64,000 nt of DNA from the human T2T-CHM13v2.0 reference genome, Homo sapiens (GCF_009914755.1 NC_060945.1); one strand, 5' to 3'; shown: positions 39,680-63,689, numbered from the stretch's first letter. The notes: generated by a model not told the origin, from the sequence alone. Numbers and translations are program-made.

Positions 39680-40330
39680 GGGGTCCCATATTTGCAGATA
39701 CGGAGGTTGGGTACGAGTTAAAAGGTCACAACACAGATGTAGATGTGATGCTTTTCATCATCAAAAGCATGGTAAAAACTCTAAGTAGATAAAACTCTGT
39801 GAAGGGATTGGTGTAAAAAGGAGAAGAGAAAGCTAAGGACCAATCCTTGAGACACTCCAATGACTGTGATGTAGGAGGGAAAAGCGGGACCCGTGAAGAA
39901 AAGATTGAAGATGTTGTGGTGACACATAATAGAAGAGCAAGAAGTTTTTCAAAGACGAGGTTCTCAAGAAAATCACATGCAGCTGAATGACCCAAGAGGT
40001 GGAAGATTTTAAAAGGCCATTTATTTTCACTAGCAATATGTCACCAATGAGCCATTTCAGGAGTCTATGTTCCAGTAGGCTAAGATTCAATTTCAAAGTT
40101 TACAAATAAAATGAAATGAAAAAAATGAGAGTAAGCATAGACTACTCATTATAAGAGTTGATCATGAAAAGAAATAAATTTTAAGTTTATTAAATAGGTA
40201 TCAATATCCAAAGAAAAACGTTGATTTCTTTAAGGCAAGTGATCCCTGGGCATGACTGGTAACAAGAAAGAATTTAAAAAGGAAAGACTGAGGACCCTAA
40301 GAAGAGTGGAGTGTGGCAAGGTGTGGGAGC
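39680..40330 (-). mobile_element. L2 fragment
   Basis: gagaagagaaagctaaggacc...gacactcca...cacatgcagctga resembles reverse L2 ORF2. Confidence 0.55.
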
Positions 40331-40404
40331 AATGTCTGAAAAGCCACAATCAAGGATGTGTCCCAAAGCAGAGAAGAAAGGTTGACTTTTAAAATTAGAA
40401 TAAA

Positions 40405-40635
40405 AGTAATACTGGTTAACATTTATTGAGCAGTGATTATTTGCACAGAACTGTTTAAATGCTGAATGTACATTATCTCCTTAACTACTTATGAAAACCT
40501 TACAAGGTAGATATCATCATTCCCACTTCCCCTACAAAGAAAGTGAAACCAAAATAAATTAATTCCCCATGATGTCCTAGAAAGTGTGAGGTGGTGTCCA
40601 AACACAGACCTATCTGACTCAAGCTCATGCACTGA
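40405..40635 (-). mobile_element. MIR
   Basis: aacatttattgagca...aaggtagatatcatcattcccac...tctgactc. Confidence 0.75.
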
Positions 40636-41149
40636 AAATTTCTGTTTCTGATTCATTGCTCAGTGTCACAAGGTGTAAGAACACAATTCTAACTTTGTTT
40701 GAGTGGTAGAAGTTATGTTCTTAAAGCTAATATACTAACATATAATTTGAACACTCACAGCTTCTGAAACTGAAAATACACATTCTTCATCCAATGTTTG
40801 CTGTATAGTGTATGCTCAGAGGGGACTCTGAAAGTGGAAAGGGATAAATTCTTACTCCTAGGGCAATTCCTTCTAATGAGGAGAAATCCCTTGATTTCCT
40901 TGGGTGGGGTACACAAACAGAGAAAGATATTAAATAAGGCTTATTTTTATAATTTTATTTCAAGGAGAAAAAAAAATCTCTTCTACTATGCCACCTCTTT
41001 TGTGAATATTGGAGTGGTGTATAAACCCTGAACTTACGCCTCTCTCCTGAGCCAACTCTAACCACACTAAGCCCTATCACCATGAGGAGGTGATAGGGCT
41101 TTTTTAAATAACTTTTTGAGGAACAAAAGTTATTAAACTGAAGAGAAAT

Positions 41150-42310
41150 GTTATCTCAATCATCATTCTGGTGCTAAATCCAAAAGATTCTTTTCAGACT
41201 TTTTCACTTCTCTGTAGAATATGAAGCTGCTCCTCATCCCTTCTAGTCGTTCTCACCTCCCTTTGTTTTATTGACTATAGTCATTTAATAAATCTACATG
41301 CTTTTCACATACTTTTCACAGGCTCCTCTCCTCTACCCACCCTCTAAATGTTGGAGCTTCTTTGCTCATCTTCTCCTTTCTGTTTCTTCACACTGTCCCT
41401 AAAAGGTCTCTTCCTCTCTACTGACTTGAACTACCACCTCTATGCTGATGAGTTCCAGAAGCATATCTTTAGCTTGGACCTCTCTGCAGAGCTCCAGATA
41501 CATATGTACTATCCTAAACCTCCCTCTCTGGGTGTCCTGTAGAGGTACCCCATCATTTTCACAATAAACTGTTCCTCCTGTATAGCCATTCGTTTGATCA
41601 AACACTCAGTCGAGACAGAAAATTAGTTATTACCTTTGAGGGTGTTTTCTTCTTTATTCATCTCCTCTTCACATTCAATTCAACCAGTAAATTCAGTAAA
41701 TTCTGTTCTAAGTATTCCTCAAATCTTCTCTTCCTCTTCATCCTAATGATCACTGTCTTATTTCAGGAGTCATCTTTTCTTGCATGGACCAGTTTTTAAC
41801 AGAAAACTCTGGTGTCCCTGCCTCCAGTCTTGGTCACTTCCAAATCTGATCTGCACATGGCCTCCAAAGTGATATTTCTAAAATTCAGATTTAATCATAT
41901 TACTCGTATTCATAAAATCATCAACATCTTCCCATTGATTTATAGAAAAATTCAATCTGTTAAGGGTGCTATAAATGATGCCATACAAGGCTCCTACCCT
42001 TTACTCTCATCCTCAATCACTCCCGTATTTTCACTCTAGGTCCCAACTTTACAAAAATGATGTGTTGTTTCCAGAATGTGCACACTCCCTGCCCAATGAC
42101 TGAAATATGGCTGCCCTCCATCACTGTGGGTTGCCTGTTACTCCCCCACCACAATTACCTTCTCCAGAATGCCTTGTCTCATCCTGTCAACCCAGCTTAT
42201 GTGCCTTCTCTATAGCCTCTTAGAGTCTATACTTTCTTTCATTGTAACCTGCTCGGTTTATTACTAACAGGTTTACCAGTATCATTAGAATCTCAGTCAC
42301 TTAAAGGTAA
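41150..42310 (+). mobile_element. L2 (RT remnant to 3' end)
   Basis: taccacctctatgctgatgag encodes a YADD-like motif (HLYADE); downstream L2 3' motifs. Confidence 0.75.
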
Positions 42311-42324
42311 ATAATGGTATCTGG

Positions 42325-42580
42325 AAGCAGTAGAATATATTAATTAAGAGAAGCAGATTTGGAACAAAATAAACGTGGATTTGACTCCCGAAACATCCAC
42401 TTACTTAATAATTGTTTATGTGCAGAGGGGGCCAGGTAGGTTCATGTCTCTGAACTCTAGCCTCTGTATCTATAAAATATACCCGATCATACCTTCTTCT
42501 GAGTGTTTTTTTTTTTTTAGGATTAAAATGAAATAGTACATAGTAAGACCTTGACATAGTACTTGAAGCATGTTAAAATG
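42325..42580 (+). mobile_element. MIR
   Basis: taagagaagcagatttgga...ggatttgactccc...ggattaaaatgaaata. Confidence 0.6.
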
Positions 42581-45174
42581 ATATTGTCTTATCCCATTTT
42601 GCCCAACATGTAGCCACCTAGCTACTACATCGTAAGTATTTAGAAAGTACATACATTTGTTACCAGTGCCCCATGATAGCAGTGCCTGATGAAGTCATAA
42701 TGCAATGGAGAGCAAATAGAACAAGTGGAGTCTTCTGAATCCTAATGCACTTTACTGATTCTAGAAAGAATAAATGAGAGGCTATGCAAAATCTCAAGCT
42801 CAGCTAAGGAATATATTTTGTTGAAGGTTTGTGCTTCCATTTTATGGTGATTGGAAAGGGACTGAGCTAGAAAGAAACTGAGCTAGAAAGGAGCTCAGTT
42901 CCTCTCCAATCATCACAAAAATTTACATTCCATAGTATGCAACATCTTGTCAGGAAAAACAAATATAATCCTTCACATGCAATCTTTGCTCACAATTATG
43001 AGATACTGTCTTTATGGGTCTAAATCAGAAATACTGTCTTCTTACAGACTCTTGATGTGATCTGTGCTCATCCTTAATCCTTGGTAAAGTTCCAAAATGG
43101 CTCTGGATCCTACTGACATCTGTTACTAAGGATAATGCATGAAGGAGATGAAGATATCTGTTCTCAATAAACAGAGAAAACATTACTAAAGAAAATGTAG
43201 ATCAATTTCAGATCTCCTTATCCATAGATAAGGAAATGCAAGTTATTAGAGACCTATGAAAAATTGCTGTTCAGACATAAAGATGCATCTTTTTATTTCA
43301 GATCTTTACCACTTAAGTTTAGCCTAGTATTTTTTAAGGCCAATGAAACAGTTGGTGAAAAAGAATAAATGCATTTGTGATCTCCAGTGTGTTCTCTCCA
43401 TTCTAGCAAAAAAAAAAAATTCCAAAAACACTTGTTCATACAGCTACAAGTTTGAGGCTTTTCATAGGAAATAAGATTTGAGGTCTAGACTAATTGATTT
43501 TATAGCTTCACAACTGAATTTTGTAATGTAGCCACAGGTCCATACACAGCAGAAGCTTAGATTAATCCTTTCCAAAAATAAAAGGAAAAAATCCATGTGA
43601 ATCACTTCTAAATGCCTCTGTATTGCAAATGAATGATGTTTGGGTGTGCATTTATACTACTTGTCTAAGATAAGACCTATTTAACAAGATATAGTTTATA
43701 CCTCATTAAAGCAACATCTACTTCTCTTGCTTGGTTACTGGTCTTTCACAGCCAGTCCAATTGGCCAATATAAAATACACTTCCATTCTGAAACCTAAGT
43801 TCCACAAGAGAAAGAACATTTTTCTTTTTAAGTAGATGTATTTCATTATCTTTAAGAGTTTATATTATATACATGACATTACCCCCATTTAATTTTTGTG
43901 CTGGTCAGGGATTATTCAGTGATGAAAAAAGTTTTCCCAAATGAGGGCAAATAAAAACATTTTTGCTGGAAGACTATAAAGGACAACTTCATAGACATTC
44001 AAAAGTGAAAAATAAAATACACCCAGACCTCTTATAAATATATTGGGAACTGGAAAATCAGAAACTGAGATCATCTCTCTTAATTCACATGATTTCTCAT
44101 CTCCTTCTCACTAGTACACTTTACCTCCTGATTTCTGGTCCAATCCATTGAACCCATTTTTTTCACTCAATGTGAGTAAATGTCATATAAAAGGTTGCAG
44201 GAAGATGCTGCTTCAGGCCATTTTCTCTAAAAGAGACTTGTAAGTACAGAGGTCATTGAAGTTTCATGAACTTCTTTATCCTTTTTGATCAAGTAGCAGA
44301 TTACCTCTAACTAGTCCACAGCTTCCACATGGAAGATGGACAAACATATAGAAATGGGGAAGAAAGAAGAACCAACACACTTGTCAGCAAATTCAACCTA
44401 AGTCAGCCTCTTTTCAATGGGCTCATGGGAAATGAAGCATTTCCTGGGACACAGAGGAGGGAGAGAAAAATCTCCCATTATTGGGGATTGAACCATAAGA
44501 AAATGTTGTTTCATGGCCCCAAATGGCCAAATACCAACATATTATGTGATCCAACTAAATCACAATGGTATAATCAAACAAGTTATTCTGATTATTACCA
44601 ATAGAGACACTAAAATTTTGGCTGTGTATTAAACCCTCTTGCTTTTCACATCTTCTCAATGTATTTATTTTATAGCACATCTGGAACAATCCTTTTATTT
44701 ATTAATGAAGATCGTCTCAATTGCCAAAGTCTATATTTTTCTTCCACTTAATGAAAAATATCCAAAGTTGCTGGTTATGGGCCCATCAGAGATTATTTTC
44801 TCTTAATCATATTTCATTTAAAAAAAACTAGTCAGTTCATTTTTCTAAAAAAAAAATGCATGTTCAGAAAAAAATACAATCACTGAAAGCCCAAATTTCC
44901 AGTACAATTTAATAACAAAAAAGGACGGAGTGGAGTAGGATAGTCACATGGTTCCTGTTATCCACCCCCAAGCTTAAGAAACAGGGAGGTCTAAAATGTA
45001 GTGTGGAAGAGTAAAAACAGCATGACCTGCTTTCAGTTCCAAGTTCTTCCTTCTACTGATTGTGCAGTCTTGGGCATGCTGATGAATCAAATCAACCTCT
45101 CTGGCTGCACATGGAAATTGAGGAATGAAAATACTTCTGAGGTAGGGTTGATGTGAGCATTGGTTGAGACAATG

Positions 45175-45745
45175 CCTTCATTTGTTGAGTTTCTGTTATG
45201 TGCCAGCACTTTACTACAACAGAGATGCAATAGTGAAGGAAAAGAGAAACACAAGCCCTTTAAGACTTCTTGGCATTTCTGATCTGACAGGTGGACACAG
45301 ACAATAATCAAAGGATTATATGAATAAATCCCAATTATGGTAAATTCTCTGAAAGAGAATAGTGTCCTGAGAATGAGGGGTGGGAGGGAGAGGGGCAAGT
45401 AAACAGAACAGATTGTATGGCCAGAAAGCATATGATTGGACCAAGGAGAACACAAAAGACCTGTGTAGCTAAATGAGGAGAAGCTAGATGTGAAATGGGG
45501 CGTAGAAATTAGGGTCCAGAAATTAAAACTTTACCGTAGATTTTCTGGGACAATAATTTTTGAACTTTACTCAATAAAATGACAAACAATTCAATATTTT
45601 TAAAGAGTAATGATACGATGAGGCTTGAAATTCAAAATGCCAGCCTTGCTACAGTGCAGATAAGAAATTAGAAAAGGGTCAAAAGGATGCAGGAAGCTAA
45701 TCTATTGATCCAGGTGAGGGACATGGCAACCTTGAATCATGTACT
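45175..45745 (-). mobile_element. L2 3' end (host of the two large L1s)
   Basis: ttcatttgttgag...tatgtgccagcact...atccaggtgaggga. Confidence 0.65.
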
Positions 45746-45761
45746 GGAAAAATGATGTCTT

Positions 45762-51824
<6,063 letters not shown>

Positions 51825-51959
51825 TTAACATCTTTTACTCTTCCTTTTTTAAAAAAAAATCTCTATCTCTCTATGTATGCTATAGAGAAAACATTTTTGT
51901 ATTTCCTTCAAATTCCCTAATTCTCTTTTTAATTATGCCCAGTCAAGTTATTATCCTGT

Positions 51960-52484
51960 TGAATTTATTAGATCAACTATAAGAAAAAAAAACTAATGTA
52001 TTGATGTGTTGGGTTGAATGTGGAGAATAAAGGGAAGGGATAAGAGCTAACTCAAAAGTTTCAGGCTTTGGAACTAGATACAAGTTTGAAACACTGAAAA
52101 AGAACAAGATGTGTGATAGGAGGCCTTGGAGATTGTGATATTTTGGGGGACATGTTGAAAATGGGATGTTTCTGAGACATACAAGTGGAAGAATCAACCA
52201 GGCACCTAATTATTCATGTCTGGAGCTCAGTAGGAAAGCCAGCACTACAAAGACAAATTGTGAATTCTATGATGTCTTTGTATTAACTCAGGCTGTACAT
52301 GAAAGTGTAAAGAGATTTCCTAGCAGGGAGAGCATAGAGTGTGAAGAGGAGAGACAAAGATTGAGCTCGACCCAGGAAAGGACGGAATGTGCAAAGGAGT
52401 CAGAGACAGAGCATCTCAGGCAGTAAGAGCAAACCAAAAAACAATCATGATAAAAATTCATTATTTTAAAAAGGAGACTGTGGC
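51960..52484 (-). mobile_element. L2 continuation between the two L1s
   Basis: ttttgggggacatgttgaa...gagacatacaagtgga...gtctggagctcag...ggagtcagaga. Confidence 0.7.
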
Positions 52485-55400
52485 TACAACCACCACTAAC
52501 ATTTCTTCCTCTGCTGTCTCCACATTGTAAAAGGAACATAAACTCAGATTGCCCCAGAGCCGTGGTGGGCAGTTCAGGAGTGCCAAGCTGGGCTCTACAG
52601 CCAGCACTCAAGTGGGAGAGGAGCCTACACTCAGAGTATTGAGAGGGGCATGGCTGCAACTGTGAGAAAATATAAGGAAGCCACATGACTGAGCAAGAGC
52701 CCACCAACTGATCAATACACCTAAGTACCACCTACTCGATCACACCTCAAGGCTTCAACACCAAAAATACCTCATTAACAGACTCCTTTGAGAAACCAAA
52801 GACAAAAAGTCAGCTACAAATAAAGACCCTGCACAAAGGCTCAGCTCCATGAAAACACACAGAAAAGAAGTTTATTGACTGTATCAATCTACACTACAGT
52901 TAAAGGAACACCCACATGCAGAGATGAGAAAGAACCAATGCAAGAATACTGGTAACCGGTAACTCAAATGGTCAGAGTGTCATATGTCCTCCAGATGATT
53001 GCACCTGTTCTCCAGCAAGGGTTCTTAACCCTGTTGAGCTGGCTGGAATGACAGTATTCAGAACATAAATAGAAATGAAGATCATCGAGATTCAGGAGAG
53101 TGGCAAAGCCCAATCCAAGGAAACTAAAAACCACAATAAAATGATACAGAAGATGAAAGATGAAATAGCCAGTATATATAAGAACCTGAGAGAGCTGACA
53201 GAGCTGAGAAACACACTAAAAGAATTTCACAACACAATTACAAGTATTAATAGCAGAACAGACCAAGCTAAAGAAAGAAAATTAGAACTTGAAGCCTGGT
53301 TCTCTGAAATAAGACAGTCAGACAAAAATAAAGAAAAAACAATGAAAAGGAATGCACAAAACCTCCAAGAAATATGGAATCGTGTAAAGAGGCCAAATAT
53401 ATGAATCACTGGCATCCCTAAAAGGGACGAGGGGAAAGCAAACAACTTAAAAAACATATTTTAGGATATCGTCTATGCAAACTACCTCACCTTGCTAGAG
53501 AGGCCAAAAGTCAAACTCAGGAAATACAGAGAACCCCTGCAAGATTCTCCCCAACACACATAATCATCAGAATTTTCCAAGGTTGAAATGAAAGGCAGAA
53601 TGATAAAGACAGCTAGAGAGAAAGGGCAGGTCACCTGCAAAAAGAGAACACCATCAGGATAACAGCAAATCTCTCAGCTGTAACCCTACAAGCAAGAAGA
53701 GATTGGGAGCCTATATTCAACATTTTTAAGGAAGAAATCTTCAACCAAGAATTTCACATCAAGCCAAACTAAGCTCCCTAAGCAAAGGAGAAGTAAGATC
53801 CTTTTCAGATAAGCAAATGATAAGAGAGTTTATTACCACCAGACCTGCCTTACAAGAGATCTTGAAAGCACTAAATATAGAAAGAAAAGACCACTACCGG
53901 CCAATACAAAAACACTTAAATACACAGACCAGTAACACTATAAAGCACAATACAAACAAACCAGCATAGTAACCAGCTAACAACACAATGAAAAGATCAA
54001 AACCACACATGTCAATACTAACCCTGAATATAAACAGGCTAAATGGCTCCATTTAAACGGTACAGAATGGCAAGCTGGATAAAAAGGCAAAACTCAATGG
54101 TATGCTGCAAGAGACCAATCTCACACATAATGACACCCAAAGGCTCAAAATAAAAATAAAAAAATGGAGGCAAATCTACCAAGCAAGTGGAAATCAGAAA
54201 AAATCAGGGGTTGAAATCCTAATCTTAGACAAAACAGACTTTAAATCAATAAGGCTTTTAAAAAAAAGACAAAGAAGGGCATTACATAATGTAAAGAGTT
54301 CAATTCAACAAGAGTTCAATTCAACAATTTAACTATCCTAAATACATGTGCACCCAACATAGGGGCATCCAGATTAATAAAGCAAGTTCTTAGAGTCATA
54401 CAAAGAGACTTAGACTCCCACACAATAATAGAGACTTCAACATTCCACTGAAAGTATTAGACAAATCATTGAGGCAGAAAATTAACAAAGATATTCATGA
54501 CCTGAACTCAACATTGGACCAAATGGATCTGCTAGACCTGTACAGAACTTTCCACCCAAAAACAACAGAATATACATTCTTCTCATCGCCACATGGCACA
54601 CACGCTAAAATTGACCACATAATTGGACATAAAACAATCCTCAGCAAATGCAAAAAAAATTATACCAAACACACTCTTGGACCACAGTGCAATAAATATA
54701 GAAGTCAAGACTAAAAAAAAAATTGCCCCAAACCATGTAATTACATGGAAATTAAACAACATGTTCCTGAATGACTTTTGGGTACATAATGAAATTAAGT
54801 CAGATGTCAAGAAATTATTTGAAACTAATGAGAACAAAGCTACAACATACCGGAATATCTGGGATACAGCTAAGGCAGTGTAAAGAGGGAAGTTTATAGC
54901 ACTAAACACCCATGAAAAAAAGTTAGAAAGATTTCAAATTAACAAGCTAACATCACAGATGAAAGAATTAGAGAAGCAAGAGCAAATCAATCCCAAAGTT
55001 AGCAGAAGACAAGAAATAACAAAAATCAGACCTAAACTGAAGGAAATTGAAACCAAAAAACCCTTAAAAGATCAATGAATCCAGGAACTGGAATTTTGAA
55101 AAAATTACTAACATAGAGCACTAGCTAGACTAATAAAGAAAAAAAGAGAATAAATCCAAATAAACACAATTAGAAATGATGGAAAGGATACACCACTGGC
55201 CCCACAGAAATAAAGATAACCATCAGAAACTACTGCAAACACCTCTACACACACACACTAGAAAACCTAGAAGATATGGATAAATCCCTGGAAACATATG
55301 CTTTCCCAAGGCTGAGCCAGAAAGAAATCGATTCCCTGCACAAACCAATAATGAGCTCTGAAACTGAATGAATAATAAATAGCCTACCAAGAAAAATAAA

Positions 55401-58062
55401 AAGGACAAGATGGATTCACAGTAGAATTCTACCAGATGTACAGAGAGAGCTGGTACCATTCCTACTGAAACTATCACCAAAAATTGAGGAAAGGGGACTC
55501 CTCCCCAACTCATTCCATGAGGCTAGCATTATCCTGATACCAAAACCTGGCAGAGACACAACGAAAAAAGAAAACTTCAGGCCAATATCCTTGATGAACA
55601 TTGATGCAAAACCAACATCCTTGATGAACACTGATGCAAAAATCCTCAACAAAATACTTGTAAACAAAACGCAGCAGCACATCAAAAAGCTAGTCTACCA
55701 CAGTCAAGTAAACTTCATCCTTGGGATGCAAAGTTGGTTCAATGTACACAAACCAATAAATCTAATTCATCACATAAACAGAACTAAAGGAAACAAACAT
55801 GATTATCTCCATAGATGCAGTAAAAGTTTTTGATAAAATTCAACATCTCTTCGTGTTAAAAACTCTCAATTCACTAAATATTGAAGGAATATACCTCAAA
55901 ATAATAAGAGCCACCTACAACAAACCCACAAACGACAGCATACTGAACAGGGAAAAGCTGAAATCATTCCCCTGGAAAACTGGCACAACACAAGAACGCC
56001 CTCCCTCACCACTCCTGTTCAACATATTATTGGAAGGTCTGGCCAGAACAATCAGGCAAGAGAAAGAAATAAAGCATATTTAAATAGGAAGAGAAGAATT
56101 AAAAGTATCCGTTTTTGCAAATGACATGTTTTTATATCTAGAAAACCCCATAGTCTCAGCCTAAAATCTCCTTCAAATGATAAACAACTTCAGCAATGTT
56201 GCAGGATACAAAATCAATGTACAAAAATCACTAGCATTTCTATACACCAACAACAGCCTAGCTGAGAGCCAAATCAGGAATTGAATCCCATTCACAATTA
56301 CCACAAAAAGAATAAAATATCTAGGAATACAGCAAACCATGGAGGTGAAAGATCTCTACAATGGGAATTCCAAAGTGCTGCTCAAAGAAATCAGTGATGA
56401 CACACACAAAAAATATGAAAACATCCCATGGTCATGGACAGGAAGAATCAATATCATTAAAATGGCCATACTGCCCAAAGCAATTTACAGATTCAACGCC
56501 ATTCCTGTCAAACTACCAGTGACATTCTTCACAGAACTAAGAAAAAAAAACTATTTTAAAATTTATATGGAACCAAAAGAGGGCCCAAATGGCCAAGGCA
56601 ATCCTAAATGAAAAGAACAAAACTGGAGGCATCATGTTACCCAACTCCAAACTATACTATGTGGCTACAATAACCAAAACAGTATGGTACTGGTACAAAA
56701 ACAGACACATAGACCAATGGAACAGAATAGAGAGCCCAGAAACAAGCCCACACACCTATGACTGTCTTTGACAAAGCTGACAAAAACAAGCAATGGGGAA
56801 AGGACTCCCTATTAAATAAATGGTGCTGGGATAACAGGCTAGTCATAAGCAGAAGATTGAAACTGGACTCCTTTTTTACATCATATACAAAAATCAACTC
56901 AAGATAAATTAAAGATTTAAATGTAGAACCCAAAAACTATAAAAACCCTAGACAACTTAGGCAATACCATCCTGGACACAGGAATGGGCAAAGATTTTAT
57001 GACAAAGACAGTAAAAGCAATCATAACAAAAGCAAAAATTAACAAATGGGATCTAATTAAACTTAAGAGCTTCTGTACAGCAAAAGAAACTATCAACAGA
57101 GTAAACAGACAACCTACAGAATGGGAGAAAATATTTGCAAACTATGCATCTGGCAAAGGTCTAATATCCAACATCTGTAAGGAACTTAAACAAATTTACG
57201 GAAAAAAGCAAACAATCCCATTGAAAAGTGGACAAAAGACATAAACAGGTATTTTTCTAGAAAAGACATACATGCAGCCAAAAAGCATATTTTAAAAAGC
57301 TCAGTATTGCTGATCATTAGAGAAATGCAAATTAAAACCACAATGAGATATTGTCTCACACCAGTCAGAATGGTTATTATAAAAAAGTCGAAAACTTACA
57401 GATGCTGGCAAGGATGTGAAGAAAAAGGAACACTTATACACTATTGGTGGTAACGTAAATTAGCGCAACCATTGTGGAAAGCAATACGGTGGTTTCTCAA
57501 AGAGCTAAAAGCAGAACCACTGTTGGACACAGCAATTCCATTACTGGGTATATACCCAGAGGAATATAAATCATTCTACCATAAAGACACACGCATGTAA
57601 ATGTTCATTGCAGCACTATTCACAATAGCAAAGATATGGAATCAACCTAAATGCCCAACAATGACAGATTGGATCAAGAAGATGTAGTACACATACACCA
57701 TGGAATACTATGCAGCTATAAAAGAGAATGAGATAATGTCTCTTGCAGAACATAGATGGAGCTGGAGGATATTATCCTAGGCAAACTAATGCAGGAACAG
57801 AAAACCAAATACCACATGCTCTCACTTATAAGTGGGAGCTAAATGAGGAGAACTCATGAACATAAAGGGAACAACAGACATTAGGGCCTATTTCAGGGTA
57901 GAGGGTGGGAAGAAGGAGAGGAGGAGAAAAAAATAGCTATTGGGTACTAGGCCTAGCACCTAGGTGATAAAATTATCTGTACAACAAACCCCCATGACAC
58001 GAGAGCTTACCTATAAAACAAACCTGCACATGTACTCTCGAATCTAAATTAAAAGTTTAAAT
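52485..58062 (+). mobile_element. Near full-length L1PA15/16-like LINE-1, disrupted ORFs
   Basis: Partial 5' UTR, ORF1 peptide (NLQEIWNRVKRPN), ORF2 peptides, 3' UTR ctgtacaacaaacccccatgacac...cacatgtac. Confidence 0.93.
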
Positions 58063-58107
58063 AGTAGAAAATCACAAAATTTAAAAAAAGAAAATAGCCA
58101 TACTTAC

Positions 58108-58271
58108 CATGCTTATGGATTTGCTGGTGTTCATACTTCTTAAGGGTAGAATATTTTAAACAATTGGGAGAGGAATGGGACCAGGTAGGAGCTTCCCTTT
58201 GGCATAGCTTCCATTCCATAGAAAAAGAAGAATCAAACAAGAAGGACAAAACACCCAATGAAGCGATCCAT
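58108..58271 (-). pseudogene. Solo exon 1 of a cytochrome P450 CYP2C gene (4-nt frameshift deletion plus TAA stop)
   Basis: Translation MDRFI/VFCPSCLILLFLWNGSYAKGKLLPGPIPLPIV*NILPLRSMNTSKSISM gives a signal anchor plus the PPGP-type motif. 164 nt versus the 168 nt typical of CYP2C exon 1. Phase-0 donor GTAAGTATG at 58107-58099; stop at 58156-58158. Confidence 0.92.
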
Positions 58272-58380
58272 TGATGTGCTTTGTGTAAACGCAATTGAAA
58301 GCTTAGAATCCAAATATTTTATGAGCACAAAGTGTAAGATAATCACCAAACATGGACTAAGCCTTTGAACTTTGGATAAA
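58272..58380 (-). promoter_or_regulatory. CYP2C-type proximal promoter remnant: TATA-like CATAAAA and HNF4/DR1-like TCCAAAGTTCA
   Basis: CATAAAA at 58323-58317, ~50 nt upstream of the ATG as in CYP2C genes; TCCAAAGTTCA at 58376-58366. Confidence 0.6.
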
Positions 58381-58504
58381 TATTTTTTAATCTTTGATAG
58401 ACTTCCATCTACAGGCAGAAATAAAAACAAAAGTCAATTTGGTATTGATCAATTGCTAAGTTTTCACTGGAAATTTCAACTAAAGGTAACTCACTTTTAT
58501 AAAA

Positions 58505-58848
58505 ATATGAACAAATTAAAACCAAAATTAGTAGAAAGAGTGAAGTAATAAAGCTCAGAACAGAAATAAATGAAATAAAGATTTTTAAATAATTTATAAG
58601 ATCAACAAAATAGTTATTTTTTGAAAAGATGAACAAAATTGACTAACATTTATATAGAATAACTAAGATAAAATTGAAAAGACTCAAATAAATAAAATCA
58701 GAGGTGAAAAAGAAGACATTTTGACCAACACTAAAGAAATACAAACGATCATAAGAAGGTATCATGAGTGGCTATATGTAAACAAAACTGAAAACATAGA
58801 AGAAATGAATAAATTTTGTTACACATACAACCTACTAAGGTTAAATTA
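58505..58848 (+). mobile_element. Old L1M ORF2 fragment inside the transduced segment
   Basis: accaaaattagtagaaag...tttttgaaaagatgaacaaaattgac...acatacaacctac. Confidence 0.8.
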
Positions 58849-59701
58849 TCCTTTCTGATCCAAAAAAATAGAATATTAAGAGCAAAAATTATGTAGAATG
58901 TCTGGGACATTTTTCATTTGGATTAATTCACTTTGAATTAAAATAACAGCAACTAAAAGTCATCTGAGGATTCAGTGATAATTCAAATTGCATTTTAGTT
59001 CTAAAGCAATTAACTTTCAAAACTCTCAGTTTTAGAAGGAAACACTATCAAATGGACATGCTGCCTAGGATGGTGCCTTTAGACGAAGGGGCTGAGTAAA
59101 CATTCGATGAATTAATACATGCATTTTGAAATTGATAGTTGCACAGACTATGTTTTGTAAACTGGAGTGTTATAATATGGGAGCTCAATGTATTCAGTTG
59201 AAATTCCTGACTTAGCTACGTACTGTTTGTATAAACTTGAACATTTACTTAATTTTGTTAAGCTGCAGGTCCTACTGTAAAAATATGGGTAAACATTTAA
59301 GTACCTCTCAGGATTTTTTGAGAAGTAAGTAGGTGGCCCACAATAAATAATTTGCATTGTTTTTGGTCAGCAGTAGGCTTTAAAAATCAAATACTATTAT
59401 TAAATAGTAAAATTATGTAAATCTGTATGCTAAATATTAATTTCATGCTTCAGTTCATTTTATTTTGTAATATTTGGATTTTAATGTCTCAACTAGTCCC
59501 CAAAGGAGTGGAATGCAAAATTTGAAGTCTTCTTTGAGTAAATGAACTGTATAAATCTCAATGTCAAGTTTGTTTAAAAAATTGAATTGCTGTGTGACCG
59601 ACAAATGTCTTGCAAATATCTTTTAGTCTTTCATTTTCCCATTTTCAGTGTTTTCACTCCTTCCTCTCTCCTCTCTGGCTCCATTTACACACATTTTAAG
59701 A

Positions 59702-59724
59702 AATAAAAGCAATATATTAAAAAA
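59702..59724 (+). terminator. Polyadenylation signal and residual A-tail ending the L1 3' transduction
   Basis: AATAAA at 59702-59707, A-run 59719-59724 merging into the TSD. Confidence 0.6.
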
Positions 59725-59736
59725 TGAGGCTGTGTC

Positions 59737-59850
59737 CTGCAGGGATGGGTGCTGCTGAGATCAGGTAAAATGAGTAAAAGGGATGCCAAGCACTTTGCCA
59801 GACACATGTTGGTCATTCACCAACTGACGCAAAACTCAATGCCAAGTGGT
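59737..59850 (-). mobile_element. L2 host resumes after the transduction
   Basis: gtgctgctgagatcaggtaaaatgag matches the L2 segment expected right after ...aaggagactgtggc at 52470. Confidence 0.55.
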
Positions 59851-60035
59851 TGAACGCTTAGCCACAGAACATACTGAGACTCTACTGCTGATCTTCCTGT
59901 GGTAAGACAGAAAGGGAAGCCCAAAGAAGAGAGTTACATGTTCCCTCCCTGTGAAATTCATCCCTTTTCAATAATCCCTCGGGGAACTGCCCAGCCCCTC
60001 ATCTGTCCAGTTTTTGGTCAGGCATGACCTTCTTT

Positions 60036-60270
60036 AACATTTATAGAGATTTACTGTCTCAGATACTATTCTAAATGCTTAAGTGTATGAAATCATTTAA
60101 CCTTTACCACAATCCCATGCAGAAGATCTAATTACTACCCCATTTTACAGATGAAGAAAATGAGGCACAGAGAGGTTAAGTTTCTTGCCCTGCATCACAG
60201 TGAAGTGGCAGAGCAGAGATTCAAACCTAGGCATTCTGATGCAAGGATTTGTGCTTTCATCATCTTACCA
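60036..60270 (-). mobile_element. MIR
   Basis: ccccattttacagatgaagaaaatgaggcacagagaggttaag core. Confidence 0.9.
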
Positions 60271-60363
60271 TCTCTGCAAAGCCTTCACCAATTGCCTCAA
60301 GCATATTTTACTGTAATTCCTCCATACTCACTTGGAATACATTTGTTTTCATAAATGTCTAGA

Positions 60364-60500
60364 GCATCACTGTCCAATAGAAATAAAATGTGAGTGATGT
60401 GAGCCACATACATAATTTTGAATGTTCTAGTAGCCACATTTTAAAAAATTAAATGGAACAGGTGAAAATAATTTTAAAGCTATACTTTATTGAACCCAAT
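60364..60500 (+). mobile_element. MER33 5' half
   Basis: ctgtccaatagaaata...tctagtagccacatt...acaggtgaaa...aacccaat. Confidence 0.85.
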
Positions 60501-60698
60501 TGTGATGTTTAGTTTTATGTACCAACCTGGCTACCCTATTGTGTCCAGTTGCTTGGTTGAACAAAAGCCTAGATGGCACAATAAAATATTTTTCAGATGT
60601 GATTAACAATTAAATCTGTATAGTAGATTACACTCCATATTGTGCATGGGCCACATCCAATCAGTTGAAGGCCTTAAGAGCTAAGACTGTAACATAGA

Positions 60699-60998
60699 GG
60701 CTGGTGTGGTGGCTCATGCCTGTAATCCCAACACTTTGAGAGGATGAGGCAGGAGGATCACTTATGCCCAGAAGTTCAAGACCAGTCTGGGCAACACAGT
60801 GAGACCCTCCCATCTCTAAAAAAAAATGTTTTAAATTAGCCAGGCATGGTGTCATGTGCCAGTTGTCCCAGCTATTCAGGAGGCTGAGGTGGCAGGATCA
60901 CTTGAGCCTGGTAGGTTGAGGCTGTAGTGAGACATGATTGTGCCACTGCACTCAGCCTGGGCAAAAGAGTGAGATCCTATTTCAAAAAAAAAAAAAAA
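60699..60998 (+). mobile_element. AluJ
   Basis: gaggatcactt...cccagaagttc and ggatcacttgagcct diagnostics; TSD aagactgtaacata at 60683-60696 and 60999-61012. Confidence 0.92.
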
Positions 60999-61023
60999 AA
61001 GACTGTAACATAAAAAATTTACC

Positions 61024-63689
61024 TGTATTATCTTTGCTAGGACTTTGTATTAGTCCATTTTCACACTGCTATAAACAACTGCCTAAGACTGGGTTATTTA
61101 TAAAGGAAAGAAGTTTAATTGACTCACAGTTCCACCTCGCTGGGGAGGCCTCAGGAAACTTACAATCATAGCAGAAGGTGAAGGGGAAGCAAGCACCTTC
61201 TTCACAAGGTAGCAGGGAACAGGTGTAGGGGACTGCCAAACACTTTTAAACCATCAGATCTAGTGAGAATTCATTCACTATCATGAAAATAGCATGGGGA
61301 AACTGCTCTTTGATTCAATCACCTCCCTCAACACAGAGGAATTACAATTTAAGATGAGATTTGGGTGGGGACACAGAGGAAATCCATATTATTCCACCAC
61401 TGGCCCCTCCAAAATCTCATGTCCTTTTCAATTTCAAAACCAATCATGCCTTCCCAACAGTTTCCCAAAGTCTTAACTCATTCCAGCATTAACCCAAAAG
61501 TCCAAGTCCAAAGTCTCATCTGAGACAAGGCAAGTCCCTTCCACACAGGAGCCTGTAAAATCAAAAGCAAGTTAGTTACTTCCAAGATGCAATGGGGGTA
61601 CAGTCATTCCTGTTCCAAATGCCAAAACAAAGGAGCCATAGGCCCCATGCATGTCCAAAACTCAGCAGGGCATTCATTCAATCTTGAAGCTTCAAAATAA
61701 TTTCCTTTGACTCCACGTCTCACATCCAGGGCATGCTGATACAAGAAGTGGGCTCCCAGAACCTTGGGTAGCTCCACCCCTGTGGCTCTGCAGGATACAA
61801 CCCCCACAGCTGCTTTCACGGGCTGGTGTTGAGTGCCTGTGGCTTTTCCAGGAGCACGGAGCAAGCTGTCAGTGGATCTACCTTTCTGGGGTCTGGAGGA
61901 TGGTGGCCCTCTTGTTATAGCTCCACTAGGCAGTGCCCCAGTGAGAACTCTGTATGGGGGCTCCAACCCCACATTTCCCCTCTACATTGCCCTAGTATAA
62001 GTTCTCCATGAGGGCTCTGCCTCTGCAGCAAACTTCTATCTGGACATCCAGGTGTTTCCACACATCCTCTGAAATCTAGGCAGAGGTTCCCAAAGCTCAA
62101 CCCTTGTCTTCTGTGCACCTGCAGGCCCAACACCACACGGAAGCTGCCAAGGCTTGGGGCTTGCACTCTGAAGCCACAGCCTGAGCTGTACCTTGGCCCC
62201 TTTTAGGCATGGCTGGAGCTGGAGAAGCTGGAATGCCGGTCACCATGTCCCAAGACTACACAGAGCAGCAGGGCCCTGGGCCTGGCCCATGCAATCATTT
62301 TTCCCTCCTCTCCTCTGGGCCTGTAATGGGAGAAGCTGCTGTGAAGATCTCTGACTTGCCCTGGAGACATTTTCCCCATTGTCCTGGCTCTTAACACTCA
62401 CCCTCTTGCTACTTATGGAAAATCCTGCAGCTGGATTGAATTTCTCCCCAGAAAGTGGGTTTTTCTTTTCTACCACATGGATAGGCTGCAAATTTGCCAA
62501 GCTTTTATGATCTGCTTCCCTTTTAAGCATAAATTCTGATTTCAGATCATCTCTACATGAACACATATGACTGTACGCATTCAGAAAAAGCCAGAATAAG
62601 CATCTTCAATGCTTTGCTGCTTAGAAATTTCTTCTGCCAGACACCCTAAATTACCTCTCTCAAGTTCAAAGTCCTACAGAACTCTAGGGCAGGGAAAAAT
62701 GCTGCCAGTCTCTTTGCTAAAGCATAGCAAGAGTGACCTTTATTCCAGCTTCTAACAACTTCCTCATCTCCATCTGAGACCTCCTCAGCCTGAATTTTAT
62801 TGTCCATATCACTATAATTTTGGTTAAAATCATTCAACAAGTATCTAGGAAGTTTCAACCTTTCCCACATCTTCCTGTCTTCTTCTGAGCCTTCCAAACT
62901 CTTCCAACCTCTGCCCGTTACCCAATTCCAAAGTCTCTTCTACATTTTCAAGTATCTTTATAGCAGTGCCTCAACTCCCAGCACCAATTTCCTATATTAG
63001 TCCATTTTCACACTGCTATAAAGAACTACCTGAAACTGGGAAATTTATGAAGGAAAGAGGCTTAACTGACTCACAGTTCTGCATGGTTAGGGAGGTCTCA
63101 GGAAACTTACAATCATGGTGGAAGGCAAAAGGGAAGCAAGCACCTTCTTCACAAGGCAACAGGAGAGAGTGGTGGGGGGAGCTGCCAAACACTTTTAAAC
63201 CATCAGATCTAGTGAGGACTCACTCACTAACATGAGAATCGCATGGGGAAAACTGCCACCATGATCCAATCACCTCCCACCGGGTCCCTCCCTCAACATG
63301 TGGGGATTACAATTCAAGATGAGATTTGAATGAAGATACAGAGCCAAACCATGTCAGGCTCCCATAACAAAACAGCACAGACTGAGTGGTTTAAACAAGA
63401 GAAATGTATTTTCTCACAGTTTTGGAAACTGGAAGTTCAAGATCAAGGTATTGGCAGGTTTGGTTTCTCCTCTGGCTTTTTTTTTTTTTTTTTTTTTTTT
63501 TGGCTTGCGGACAAGGCCTTTTCTCTGTTCAAGAACATCCCTGGTGTCCTATCATATTAGCCCCCCACCCTTACAGTCCCATTTAATCTTAATTGCCTCT
63601 TTAAAGGCTCTGTCTCCAAATACAATTCCACTGGGGGTTAGAACTTCAACATATGAATGTGGGGAAGAGACACAATTCAGTTCATAACA
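61024..63689 (-). mobile_element. MLT1 (MLT1A/B-like) LTR split by a THE1D provirus (own sequence 61024-61045 and 63357-63689)
   Basis: tgtattatctttgctagg...ccataacaaaacagcacagactg...cacaattcagttcataaca; TSD TTACC/TTGCC. Confidence 0.8.
61046..63356 (-). mobile_element. Full-length THE1D-like MaLR provirus (LTRs 61046-61391 and 62993-63356)
   Basis: Two similar LTRs (tattagtccattttcacactgctataaa) flank a ~1.6 kb internal region with MEGSEEDRKMWE. Confidence 0.92.

What the first reader, a model, noticed from the sequence alone, without database searches (positions are those of the whole stretch)
52468..59736. L1 3' transduction that exported a CYP2C exon 1 plus promoter (exon-shuffling fossil)
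Seen: the L1PA15/16 ends near 58062, but no TSD follows its tail. Instead ~1.65 kb of extra DNA follows, containing an antisense CYP2C exon 1, and ends in AATAAA (59702-59707), a short A-run and aaaaatgaggctgtgtc (59720-59736). That 17-mer matches aaaaaggagactgtggc (52468-52484) at the L1 5' end at 14/17 positions, and the left copy follows a TTTT/AAAA endonuclease site. The host L2 breaks at 52484 and resumes just after 59736. Known: L1 read-through past its weak poly(A) signal gives exactly this L1-flank-polyA-TSD structure. Inference: the source L1 sat antisense ~45 nt into intron 1 of a CYP2C gene and transcribed through exon 1 and ~1.4 kb of upstream DNA. This would mechanistically explain an orphan 'solo exon' CYP2C pseudogene.
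Basis: partly seen in the sequence, partly recalled or inferred. Interest (0 to 1): 0.9.

Follow-up and report, generated by a model that had tools for sequence, protein, structure and literature searches.

The report
Old L1 carrying a CYP2C exon
An ancient L1 jumping gene on human chromosome 21 most likely dragged along the promoter and first exon of a CYP2C drug-metabolism gene when it copied itself, which explains the orphan pseudogene CYP2C63P by a well-known mechanism.

Summary
A 5'-truncated L1 lies on the + strand at 52481-58061. It is followed by an A-rich tail and then 1.6 kb of DNA that is single-copy in the human genome apart from an old L1 fragment at 58497-58849. That DNA holds, antisense, the start of intron 1, a 164-nt CYP2C-like exon 1 (58108-58271) and a proximal promoter with a TATA box. 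It ends in AATAAA, a 6-A run and a 14/17 repeat of the 17-mer at the L1 5' junction, which follows TTTT/AAAAA.

L1 3' transduction is the best explanation (about 0.65), but it is not proven:
- The target-site duplication alone is weak: 3-10% of controls reach it, and about 0.006-0.016 once position after a poly(A) signal is counted.
- The final poly(A) tail is almost absent.
- Eleven poly(A) hexamers were bypassed.
- The claimed host L2 could not be confirmed.
- No source locus or sibling copy exists in the human genome. Homology to the chr10 CYP2C genes covers only exon 1 and about 200-250 nt of promoter, so the source gene seems lost.
- No outgroup genome was available to look for an empty site.

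This is a new instance of a known mechanism, of modest interest.

The parts
52464..52467 (+). TTTT just before the left duplication copy. TTTT/AAAAA fits the L1 endonuclease nick site.
   Evidence: Read directly from the sequence. The consensus TTTT/AA is recalled.
52468..52484 (+). Left copy of the putative target-site duplication, AAAAAGGAGACTGTGGC. Its last 4 nt (TGGC) also match the L1, so this is junction microhomology.
52481..58061 (+). L1 element, 5'-truncated inside its 5' UTR, with decayed ORF1 and ORF2.
   Evidence: Boundaries. 11 of 11 other copies continue upstream of the point matching 52481. Pfam domains. Terminal branch about 0.12 substitutions per site.
58048..58053 (+). The L1's own terminal poly(A) hexamer, present as the variant ATTAAA.
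58062..58089 (+). A-rich stretch, taken as the remnant of the source L1's poly(A) tail. Its right limit is uncertain (58089 to 58098).
   Evidence: 62% A over 58062-58098. 13 of 40 other L1 tails align into it.
58090..58107 (-). Start of CYP2C intron 1: GTAAGT donor at 58107..58102, then about 12 nt resembling the start of the CYP2C18 intron.
58108..58271 (-). CYP2C-like exon 1 (the CYP2C63P pseudogene), 164 nt, with a 4-nt deletion causing a frameshift and one in-frame stop.
58272..58500 (-). 5' UTR and proximal promoter of the source gene. A TATA-like CATAAAA lies at 58323..58317.
   Evidence: Alignment. Local-alignment z of 5.6 and 6.6 against the CYP2C9 and CYP2C19 upstream regions.
58497..58849 (+). 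Internal fragment of an older L1, lying within the carried DNA.
   Evidence: 39 of 39 non-self hits at 72-76% identity.
58850..59701 (.). Carried DNA that is single-copy in the human genome, taken as the distal upstream region of the source gene.
   Evidence: Only the self match was found. No homology to the upstream regions of extant CYP2C genes.
59702..59707 (+). AATAAA, the presumed poly(A) signal that ended the read-through transcript. It ends 12 nt before the right duplication copy.
59719..59724 (+). 6-A run, all that remains of a final poly(A) tail. Five of its As belong to the duplication.
59720..59736 (+). Right copy of the putative target-site duplication, AAAAATGAGGCTGTGTC.

Best explanation
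Window 52481-59719 is one ancient L1 insertion made by target-primed reverse transcription, and it carries a 3' transduction.

Proposed sequence of events:
1. The source L1 sat antisense in intron 1 of a CYP2C-type gene, roughly 11-18 nt from the exon 1 splice donor.
2. Its transcript ran past the element's own weak signal (now ATTAAA at 58048). It continued through the intron start, exon 1, the promoter and about 1.4 kb of upstream DNA, which includes an older L1 fragment.
3. The transcript was cleaved after the AATAAA at 59702.
4. The RNA was reverse-transcribed at a TTTT/AAAAA nick on what is now chr21. The 5' end was truncated in the L1 5' UTR and joined through TGGC microhomology, leaving a 13-17 nt target-site duplication.

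The result is the dead solo exon CYP2C63P.

Shown here: the anatomy, the CYP2C identity of the exon and promoter, the L1 boundaries and 5' truncation, and the uniqueness of the carried DNA.

Inferred: that all of this was a single event, the position of the source L1, and that the source gene has since been lost from the human genome.
For: 1. Foreign DNA abuts the L1 tail. A chr10-type CYP2C promoter and exon 1 sit on chr21 exactly at the A-rich end of the L1.
2. The piece is genomic, not processed. It keeps a TATA-like promoter with z 5.6/6.6 homology to the CYP2C9/19 upstream regions, the GTAAGT donor and the start of the intron.
3. The best match to the L1 5' junction anywhere in 58040-60500 is the 14/17 pair at 52468/59720. 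On the left it ends where L1 homology begins. On the right it starts 12 nt after an AATAAA.
4. Only 17% of start positions follow a poly(A) hexamer in that way. Combined with 17-22 of 500 shuffles, or 2 of 21 real chunks, this gives a joint chance of about 0.006-0.016.
5. The 3 mismatches in 17 fit the L1's own age. Its terminal branch of about 0.12 substitutions per site predicts about 3.4 mismatches.
6. TTTT/AAAAA lies at the left copy.
7. No better duplication flanks the L1 alone.
8. The features of L1 transduction insertions, as described in passages of PMC4862182, are: duplications of 4-25 bp, L1 plus a unique sequence, a further AATAAA and a poly(A) tail.
Against: - The duplication is weak on its own. 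A broader gapped test is not significant: 71 of 300 shuffles reach the observed score.
- The final poly(A) tail is at most 1 nt beyond the As that belong to the duplication.
- Eleven AATAAA/ATTAAA hexamers between 58062 and 59701 would have been read through.
- No source locus, source L1 or sibling insertion was found in the human T2T genome.
- The host-L2 continuity that would fix the right-hand boundary was not confirmed.
- No outgroup genome could be examined.
Confidence: 0.65

Rival explanations
1. Two separate events. A CYP2C promoter and exon 1 fragment was already on chr21, brought by some other route, and the L1 later landed beside it. On this reading the 14/17 match at 59720 is chance.
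For: The duplication is only weakly significant. A low-complexity 13/17 match to the left flank lies right after the L1 tail at 58075-58079. There is almost no final poly(A) tail. Eleven hexamers would otherwise have been bypassed.
Against: It needs the edge of the foreign fragment to coincide with the L1 3' end, 11-18 nt into the intron. It offers no mechanism for the fragment's arrival. The candidate duplication around the L1 alone falls to 9/17 over the 17-mer (my reading). No other CYP2C exon was seen on the minus strand in 40001-52484, in 0 of 122 pieces. That test is weak, because the exon 1 control was also missed.
Confidence: 0.15
2. Template-switch chimera. The L1 reverse transcriptase first copied a polyadenylated antisense RNA from the CYP2C promoter region, then jumped to the poly(A) tail of an L1 mRNA. 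One insertion resulted, without any L1 in the source gene.
For: It predicts the same final structure: L1, A-rich stretch, other sequence, AATAAA, duplication. No L1 is found beside exon 1 in any extant CYP2C gene.
Against: As I recall, known chimeric retrocopies usually have a small RNA as the 5' part. A 5.6-kb L1 as the second template would be unusual. It also needs an antisense transcript starting just inside intron 1. Read-through transduction is far more common. None of these points was tested here.
Confidence: 0.08
3. DNA-level duplicative transfer. A block of the ancestral CYP2C locus that already held the L1 was copied to chr21 by segmental duplication or captured during break repair.
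For: No source is available to exclude it. The similarity around the duplication can be stretched to 52449-52482 against 59700-59734 in AT-rich sequence.
Against: The left boundary coincides with the L1's 5' truncation point and a TTTT/AAAAA site. The right boundary follows an AATAAA by 12 nt. These are marks of retrotransposition, and a DNA-level transfer would give them only by coincidence. No CYP2C homology was seen outside the block (weak tests).
Confidence: 0.07

Closest known systems
L1 3' transduction. I recall Moran 1999, Goodier 2000 and Pickeral 2000, which are listed in the references of PMC4862182. The mechanism is described in passages of PMC4862182 and in the abstract of PMC9311842 (listing).
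   Same: An L1 followed by unique flanking DNA, a downstream AATAAA, a flanking duplication within 4-25 bp, and an endonuclease-type target.
   Different: This instance is very old (about 0.12 substitutions per site). The tail is almost gone and no source or sibling survives in the genome, so it is an orphan case resting on anatomy alone. The cargo is a promoter plus first exon in antisense.
Chimeric retrocopies made by template switching of the L1 reverse transcriptase (Buzdin and colleagues; recalled, not read here).
   Same: Two unrelated transcripts joined within one insertion that has a single duplication.
   Different: Here the L1 is the long 5' part. The join sits at an A-rich tail, as read-through from a genomic L1 would give.
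P450 'solo' or 'detritus' exon pseudogenes. PMC4964396 mentions detritus exons within CYP clusters (passage). The Nelson nomenclature is recalled.
   Same: A lone CYP exon with no other exon of the gene nearby.
   Different: It lies on another chromosome (chr21, not the chr10 cluster) and keeps the promoter and splice donor. It abuts an L1 tail, which points to a retrotransposition route rather than local decay of a tandem duplicate.
The exon 1 to exon 2 fused CYP2C-like fragment at chr10:65.62 Mb (locus L022).
   Same: It is the closest relative of the window's exon: 80 of 105 positions, against 67-72 of 100 to the extant genes. They share the ending ...TCCATAA(G/C)CATG.
   Different: It has no intron 1, no L1 at its edge and no shared upstream DNA. 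It is therefore a separate, processed-type copy and not a sibling transduction.

Membership tests
L1 insertion with 3' transduction | L1 sequence in sense orientation forms the 5' part | tested here: met
   Searches place the L1 at 52481-58061 on the + strand, with ORF1 and RT domains in order.
L1 insertion with 3' transduction | Non-L1 sequence follows directly after the L1 tail | tested here: met
   58099-59719 is single-copy apart from an old L1 fragment. It starts at the A-rich L1 tail.
L1 insertion with 3' transduction | A poly(A) signal lies at the end of the carried sequence | tested here: met
   AATAAA at 59702-59707, ending 12 nt before the duplication. However, 11 earlier hexamers were passed.
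L1 insertion with 3' transduction | A poly(A) tail follows the carried sequence | tested here: inconclusive
   Only a 6-A run at 59719-59724, five As of which belong to the duplication. The tail may have shrunk with age.
L1 insertion with 3' transduction | A target-site duplication of 4-25 bp flanks the whole composite | tested here: inconclusive
   14/17, and the best placement found. Controls reach this in 17/500 and 22/500 shuffles and in 2/21 real chunks. The gapped test is not significant.
L1 insertion with 3' transduction | An endonuclease-type target (TTTT/AA) lies at the 5' duplication copy | tested here: met
   TTTT at 52464-52467, then AAAAA. The consensus itself is recalled.
L1 insertion with 3' transduction | The carried sequence matches the 3' flank of a source L1 elsewhere | tested here: not met
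   No second copy exists in the human T2T genome. No antisense L1 lies beside exon 1 of any chr10 CYP2C gene. The search did detect a 78%/103-nt match, so a surviving source should have been seen. It may be lost.
L1 insertion with 3' transduction | An empty site with one duplication copy exists in a lineage that split before the insertion | not testable with these tools
   Only the human genome is held (one search states that it has no relatives here).
CYP2C gene 5' end (genomic, unprocessed) | Exon 1 is closest to CYP2C among CYP2 genes | tested here: met
   The five best non-self protein hits include four chr10 CYP2C exon 1s at 56-59% identity, against 42-46% for the chr19 CYP2 genes. DNA identity to the extant genes is 108-113 of 164.
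CYP2C gene 5' end (genomic, unprocessed) | Splice donor and intron start are retained | tested here: met
   GTAAGTATGGC follows the exon, matching the start of the CYP2C18 intron.
CYP2C gene 5' end (genomic, unprocessed) | The promoter is colinear with an extant CYP2C promoter | tested here: inconclusive
   Significant only in -250..-1 and only against the CYP2C9/19 loci (z 5.6 and 6.6). The other three loci give z -0.2 to 2.7. Nothing is seen over -1450..-1.
Insertion into a host L2 | The two flanks are adjacent in L2 consensus coordinates | not testable with these tools
   No repeat library is available. Pairwise searches found no L2-like relatives for 52000-52484 or 59737-60033.

The most novel reading that the evidence does not exclude
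The carried 1.6 kb may be the only surviving human trace of the promoter and first exon of a CYP2C paralogue that the human lineage has lost. That gene could be of the kind macaques still keep at the end of their cluster: CYP2C76/93, which have no human orthologue, with CYP2C76 only 70-72% identical to the human CYP2Cs (PMC3035658 passages). On this reading the fossil promoter was preserved only because an L1 copied it to chr21. The fragment has also been put to use: it supplies the last 1.36 kb and the ATTAAA poly(A) signal of the lncRNA LOC105372753.
Probability: 0.3. Interest if true: 0.45.

Novelty: new member of a known kind. Interest (0 to 1): 0.3.

Why it matters
It gives a mechanistic origin for a catalogued but unexplained pseudogene. 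CYP2C63P appears in 0 papers of the searched library. It is also a concrete old example of an L1 moving a promoter plus first exon, which is the raw material of exon shuffling.

It hints that dispersed solo P450 exons can be retrotransposition cargo rather than decayed duplicates. It also hints that such cargo can preserve sequence from genes that were later lost.

The mechanism is textbook and the exon is dead, so the result changes no general view.

Tried and rejected
1. Whole-segment genome search. It was swamped by the old L1 fragment, so I split the query.
2. Search for a source in the human CYP2C cluster. Sensitive blastn against 10 kb around each of five exon 1s, plus the chr10:65.62 Mb fragment, matched only the exon. 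L1 pieces near those genes are older copies (64-79% identity) at other positions.
3. Host L2. There were no genomic matches for the left flank. The right-flank hits are a MIR-like element starting at about 60034. Nothing was found against 234 kb of other loci plus the rest of the window. Rfam found only Alu-type SRP matches at 51500-51790.
4. Other CYP exons to the left of the L1. Pfam on 122 minus-strand open pieces gave no p450 match, but the exon 1 positive control also failed, so this test is weak.
5. PDB search with the 47-aa exon piece. The only hit was CYP2B4 at E 0.94, which is uninformative.
6. A longer duplication (52449-52482 against 59700-59734). It is not significant and the sequence is AT-rich.
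8. Pickeral 2000 (PMC310862) is not held.
10. Literature. CYP2C63P appears in 0 papers. Sister pseudogene names appear in 6 papers, none about their origin as judged from the listing. The terms 'solo exon', 'detritus exon' and 'P450 pseudogene' appear in 15 papers, none about this locus as judged from the listing.


Full report
WHAT IS THERE

The window is chr21:23746001-23810000 of the human T2T assembly.

The L1.
- From about 52481 to 58061 the + strand is an L1.
- In a genome search with 52380-52900, 32 of 39 non-self hits begin at window 52478-52486 and none begins earlier.
- With 57850-58200, 27 of 40 non-self hits end at or before 58064. The other 13 run on into an A-rich stretch, at most to 58098.
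- Pfam finds the three L1 ORF1 domains in open pieces at 53069-53966 and RVT_1 at 55372-56080, in order on the + strand.
- All 11 of 11 related copies examined continue upstream of the point that matches 52481, and they share that upstream sequence with each other. The element is therefore 5'-truncated within its 5' UTR.
- Its terminal branch relative to seven relatives is about 0.12 substitutions per site. From recalled neutral rates this means an age of tens of millions of years.
- I could not test the name L1PA15/16, because no repeat library was available.

The cargo.
- After the L1 comes an A-rich stretch at 58062 to about 58089-58098 (62% A).
- Read on the minus strand, what follows is the 5' end of a CYP2C-type gene.
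- There is a TATA-like CATAAAA at 58323..58317, then a 5' UTR, with the ATG at 58271..58269.
- The exon is 164 nt and ends at 58108. It has a 4-nt deletion (a frameshift) and one stop codon.
- The donor GTAAGT lies at 58107..58102. The next about 12 nt resemble the start of CYP2C18 intron 1.
- A 27-residue piece of the exon finds the chr10 CYP2C exon 1s as its best non-self relatives (56-59% identity). The chr19 CYP2 genes give 42-46%.
- At the DNA level the exon matches the five chr10 copies at 108-113 of 164 positions.
- The 250 nt upstream of the ATG align with the CYP2C9 and CYP2C19 upstream regions better than shuffles do (z 5.6 and 6.6). The other three loci give z -0.2 to 2.7. Nothing is detectable over the full 1450 nt.
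- Further out lies an internal fragment of an older L1 at 58497-58849 (39 of 39 non-self hits), and then 0.87 kb of DNA with no other copy in the genome.
- The block ends with AATAAA (59702-59707), eleven more bases, a 6-A run (59719-59724) and AAAAATGAGGCTGTGTC (59720-59736).

THE DUPLICATION

- The 17-mer AAAAAGGAGACTGTGGC at 52468-52484 matches 59720-59736 at 14 of 17 positions.
- I scanned 36 start positions around the L1 5' junction against all of 58040-60500. This pair was the top match.
- The best match next to the L1 tail itself was a low-complexity 13/17 at 58075-58079.
- The left copy follows TTTT and ends where L1 homology starts. Its last four bases (TGGC) are shared with the L1, which is the kind of microhomology seen at truncated L1 5' junctions (that generalisation is recalled).
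- Three mismatches fit the element's age: 2 x 0.12 predicts about 3.4.

Taken alone, the match is not strong.
- With the left copy anchored at the junction, 17 of 500 mononucleotide shuffles, 22 of 500 Markov shuffles and 2 of 21 real chunks of the window reach 14/17.
- With a looser anchor, about a fifth to a quarter of shuffles do (95 of 500 and 144 of 500).
- A gapped local alignment picks the same place, but 71 of 300 shuffles and 1 of 22 real chunks equal its score.
- Only 17% of start positions in that region lie 5-35 nt after a poly(A) hexamer. The joint chance is therefore roughly 0.006-0.016.

WHAT COULD NOT BE SHOWN

The host L2.
- The left flank 52000-52484 has no match elsewhere in the genome.
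- All 39 non-self matches of the right flank start at or after window 60034.
- Four of the five copies I fetched align from 60034-60038, and the fifth from 60066. This is a sharp common 5' edge, which suits a full-length MIR at about 60034-60297.
- Neither 51815-52484 nor 59737-60033 matched anything in 234 kb of other loci or in the rest of the window.
- The right-hand boundary of the insertion therefore rests on the duplication and the AATAAA alone.

A source locus.
- 58063-58497 has one other match in the genome, a 103-nt piece of exon 1 at chr10:65.62 Mb (78%).
- 58850-59760 has none.
- Sensitive blastn against 10 kb around each chr10 CYP2C exon 1 finds only the exon (68-72%).
- None of those genes has an L1 tail beside its exon 1. 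The L1 pieces near them are older or differently placed.
- A source that split off at the time of insertion should now be about 80% identical. The tool did find a 78%/103-nt match and 72-76%/350-nt matches.
- The source was therefore most likely lost from the human lineage. The tool warns that only the best candidates are scored.

Outgroup genomes. None are held, so the empty-site test could not be run.

MECHANISM

- The source L1 would have sat antisense about 11-18 nt into intron 1 of a CYP2C-type gene.
- It explains why DNA of chr10 type begins exactly at an L1 tail, why it is unspliced and includes the promoter, and why it stops after an AATAAA.
- It explains why the only decent repeat of the 5' junction lies just there.

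Points against:
- The final poly(A) tail is nearly missing.
- Eleven AATAAA/ATTAAA hexamers would have been read through, six of them inside the old L1 fragment.
- The duplication is statistically weak.
- There is no source or sibling copy.

I put this reading at 0.65. The rivals are:
- an L1 that landed beside an older fragment (0.15);
- a template-switch chimera (0.08);
- a DNA-level copy of a block that already held the L1 (0.07).

COMPARISON WITH WHAT IS KNOWN

L1 3' transduction and its marks are standard: duplications of 4-25 bp, L1 plus unique sequence, a further AATAAA and a poly(A) tail (PMC4862182, passages; PMC9311842, abstract in the listing). This would be an old, orphan instance whose cargo is a promoter and first exon.

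CYP2C63P itself appears in none of the 8.4 million papers and preprints searched. The sister pseudogene names appear in six papers, none about their origin as judged from the listing.

Passages of PMC3035658 say that macaques keep CYP2C76 and CYP2C93 at the end of the cluster, where humans have only intergenic DNA. They also say that CYP2C76 is 70-72% identical to the human CYP2Cs. That level resembles the exon's distance from the human genes, but it is a lead only, because no macaque sequence was available.

VERDICT

It is a new member of a known kind, of modest interest.

Noticed in passing
L022:1325-1640 (chr10:65620786-65621101): A CYP2C-like fragment in which the 3' part of exon 1 runs straight into exon 2 with no intron, so it is a processed-type copy. 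Its exon 1 part is the nearest relative of the window's exon (80 of 105). Its exon 2 part matches the chr10 CYP2C exon 2s at 74-78%. It may come from the same lost CYP2C lineage.
   Followed up: partly
window 58364-59719 (-), signal at 58391..58386: The last exon of the lncRNA LOC105372753 (annotated 58364-62320, minus strand) ends inside the carried CYP2C promoter DNA. An ATTAAA lies on the minus strand 22 nt before the annotated end. The L1 cargo therefore seems to supply this transcript's 3' end.
   Followed up: partly
window 58376..58362 (-): TCCAAAGTTCAAAGG lies about 90-105 nt upstream of the pseudo-ATG. It resembles the HNF4/HPF-1 type motif that I recall from CYP2C proximal promoters. 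The motif is recalled and was not tested.
   Followed up: no
window 60034-60297: A MIR-like repeat with a sharp 5' edge. All 39 non-self genome hits start at or after 60034, and some cores reach 88-94% identity.
   Followed up: partly
window 51500-51790 (+): SRP-RNA-like matches below the gathering score, as an Alu gives, just left of the unique left flank.
   Followed up: no
window 55582-55641 and 54294-54327: Two small tandem duplications inside the L1: a 30-nt unit x2 within ORF2 and a 16-nt unit x2.
   Followed up: no
chr10:95886514-95886656 (+): A lone exon-2-like CYP2C match (74%) lying between the exon 1 hits at 95.82 and 95.95 Mb. It may be another solo-exon remnant inside the cluster.
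   Followed up: no
L036:8518-9151 (chr10 CYP2C locus at 95.56 Mb): An older antisense L1 piece lies in intron 1, starting about 400 nt after exon 1. It is only 65% identical to the window's L1, so it is not the source.
   Followed up: partly
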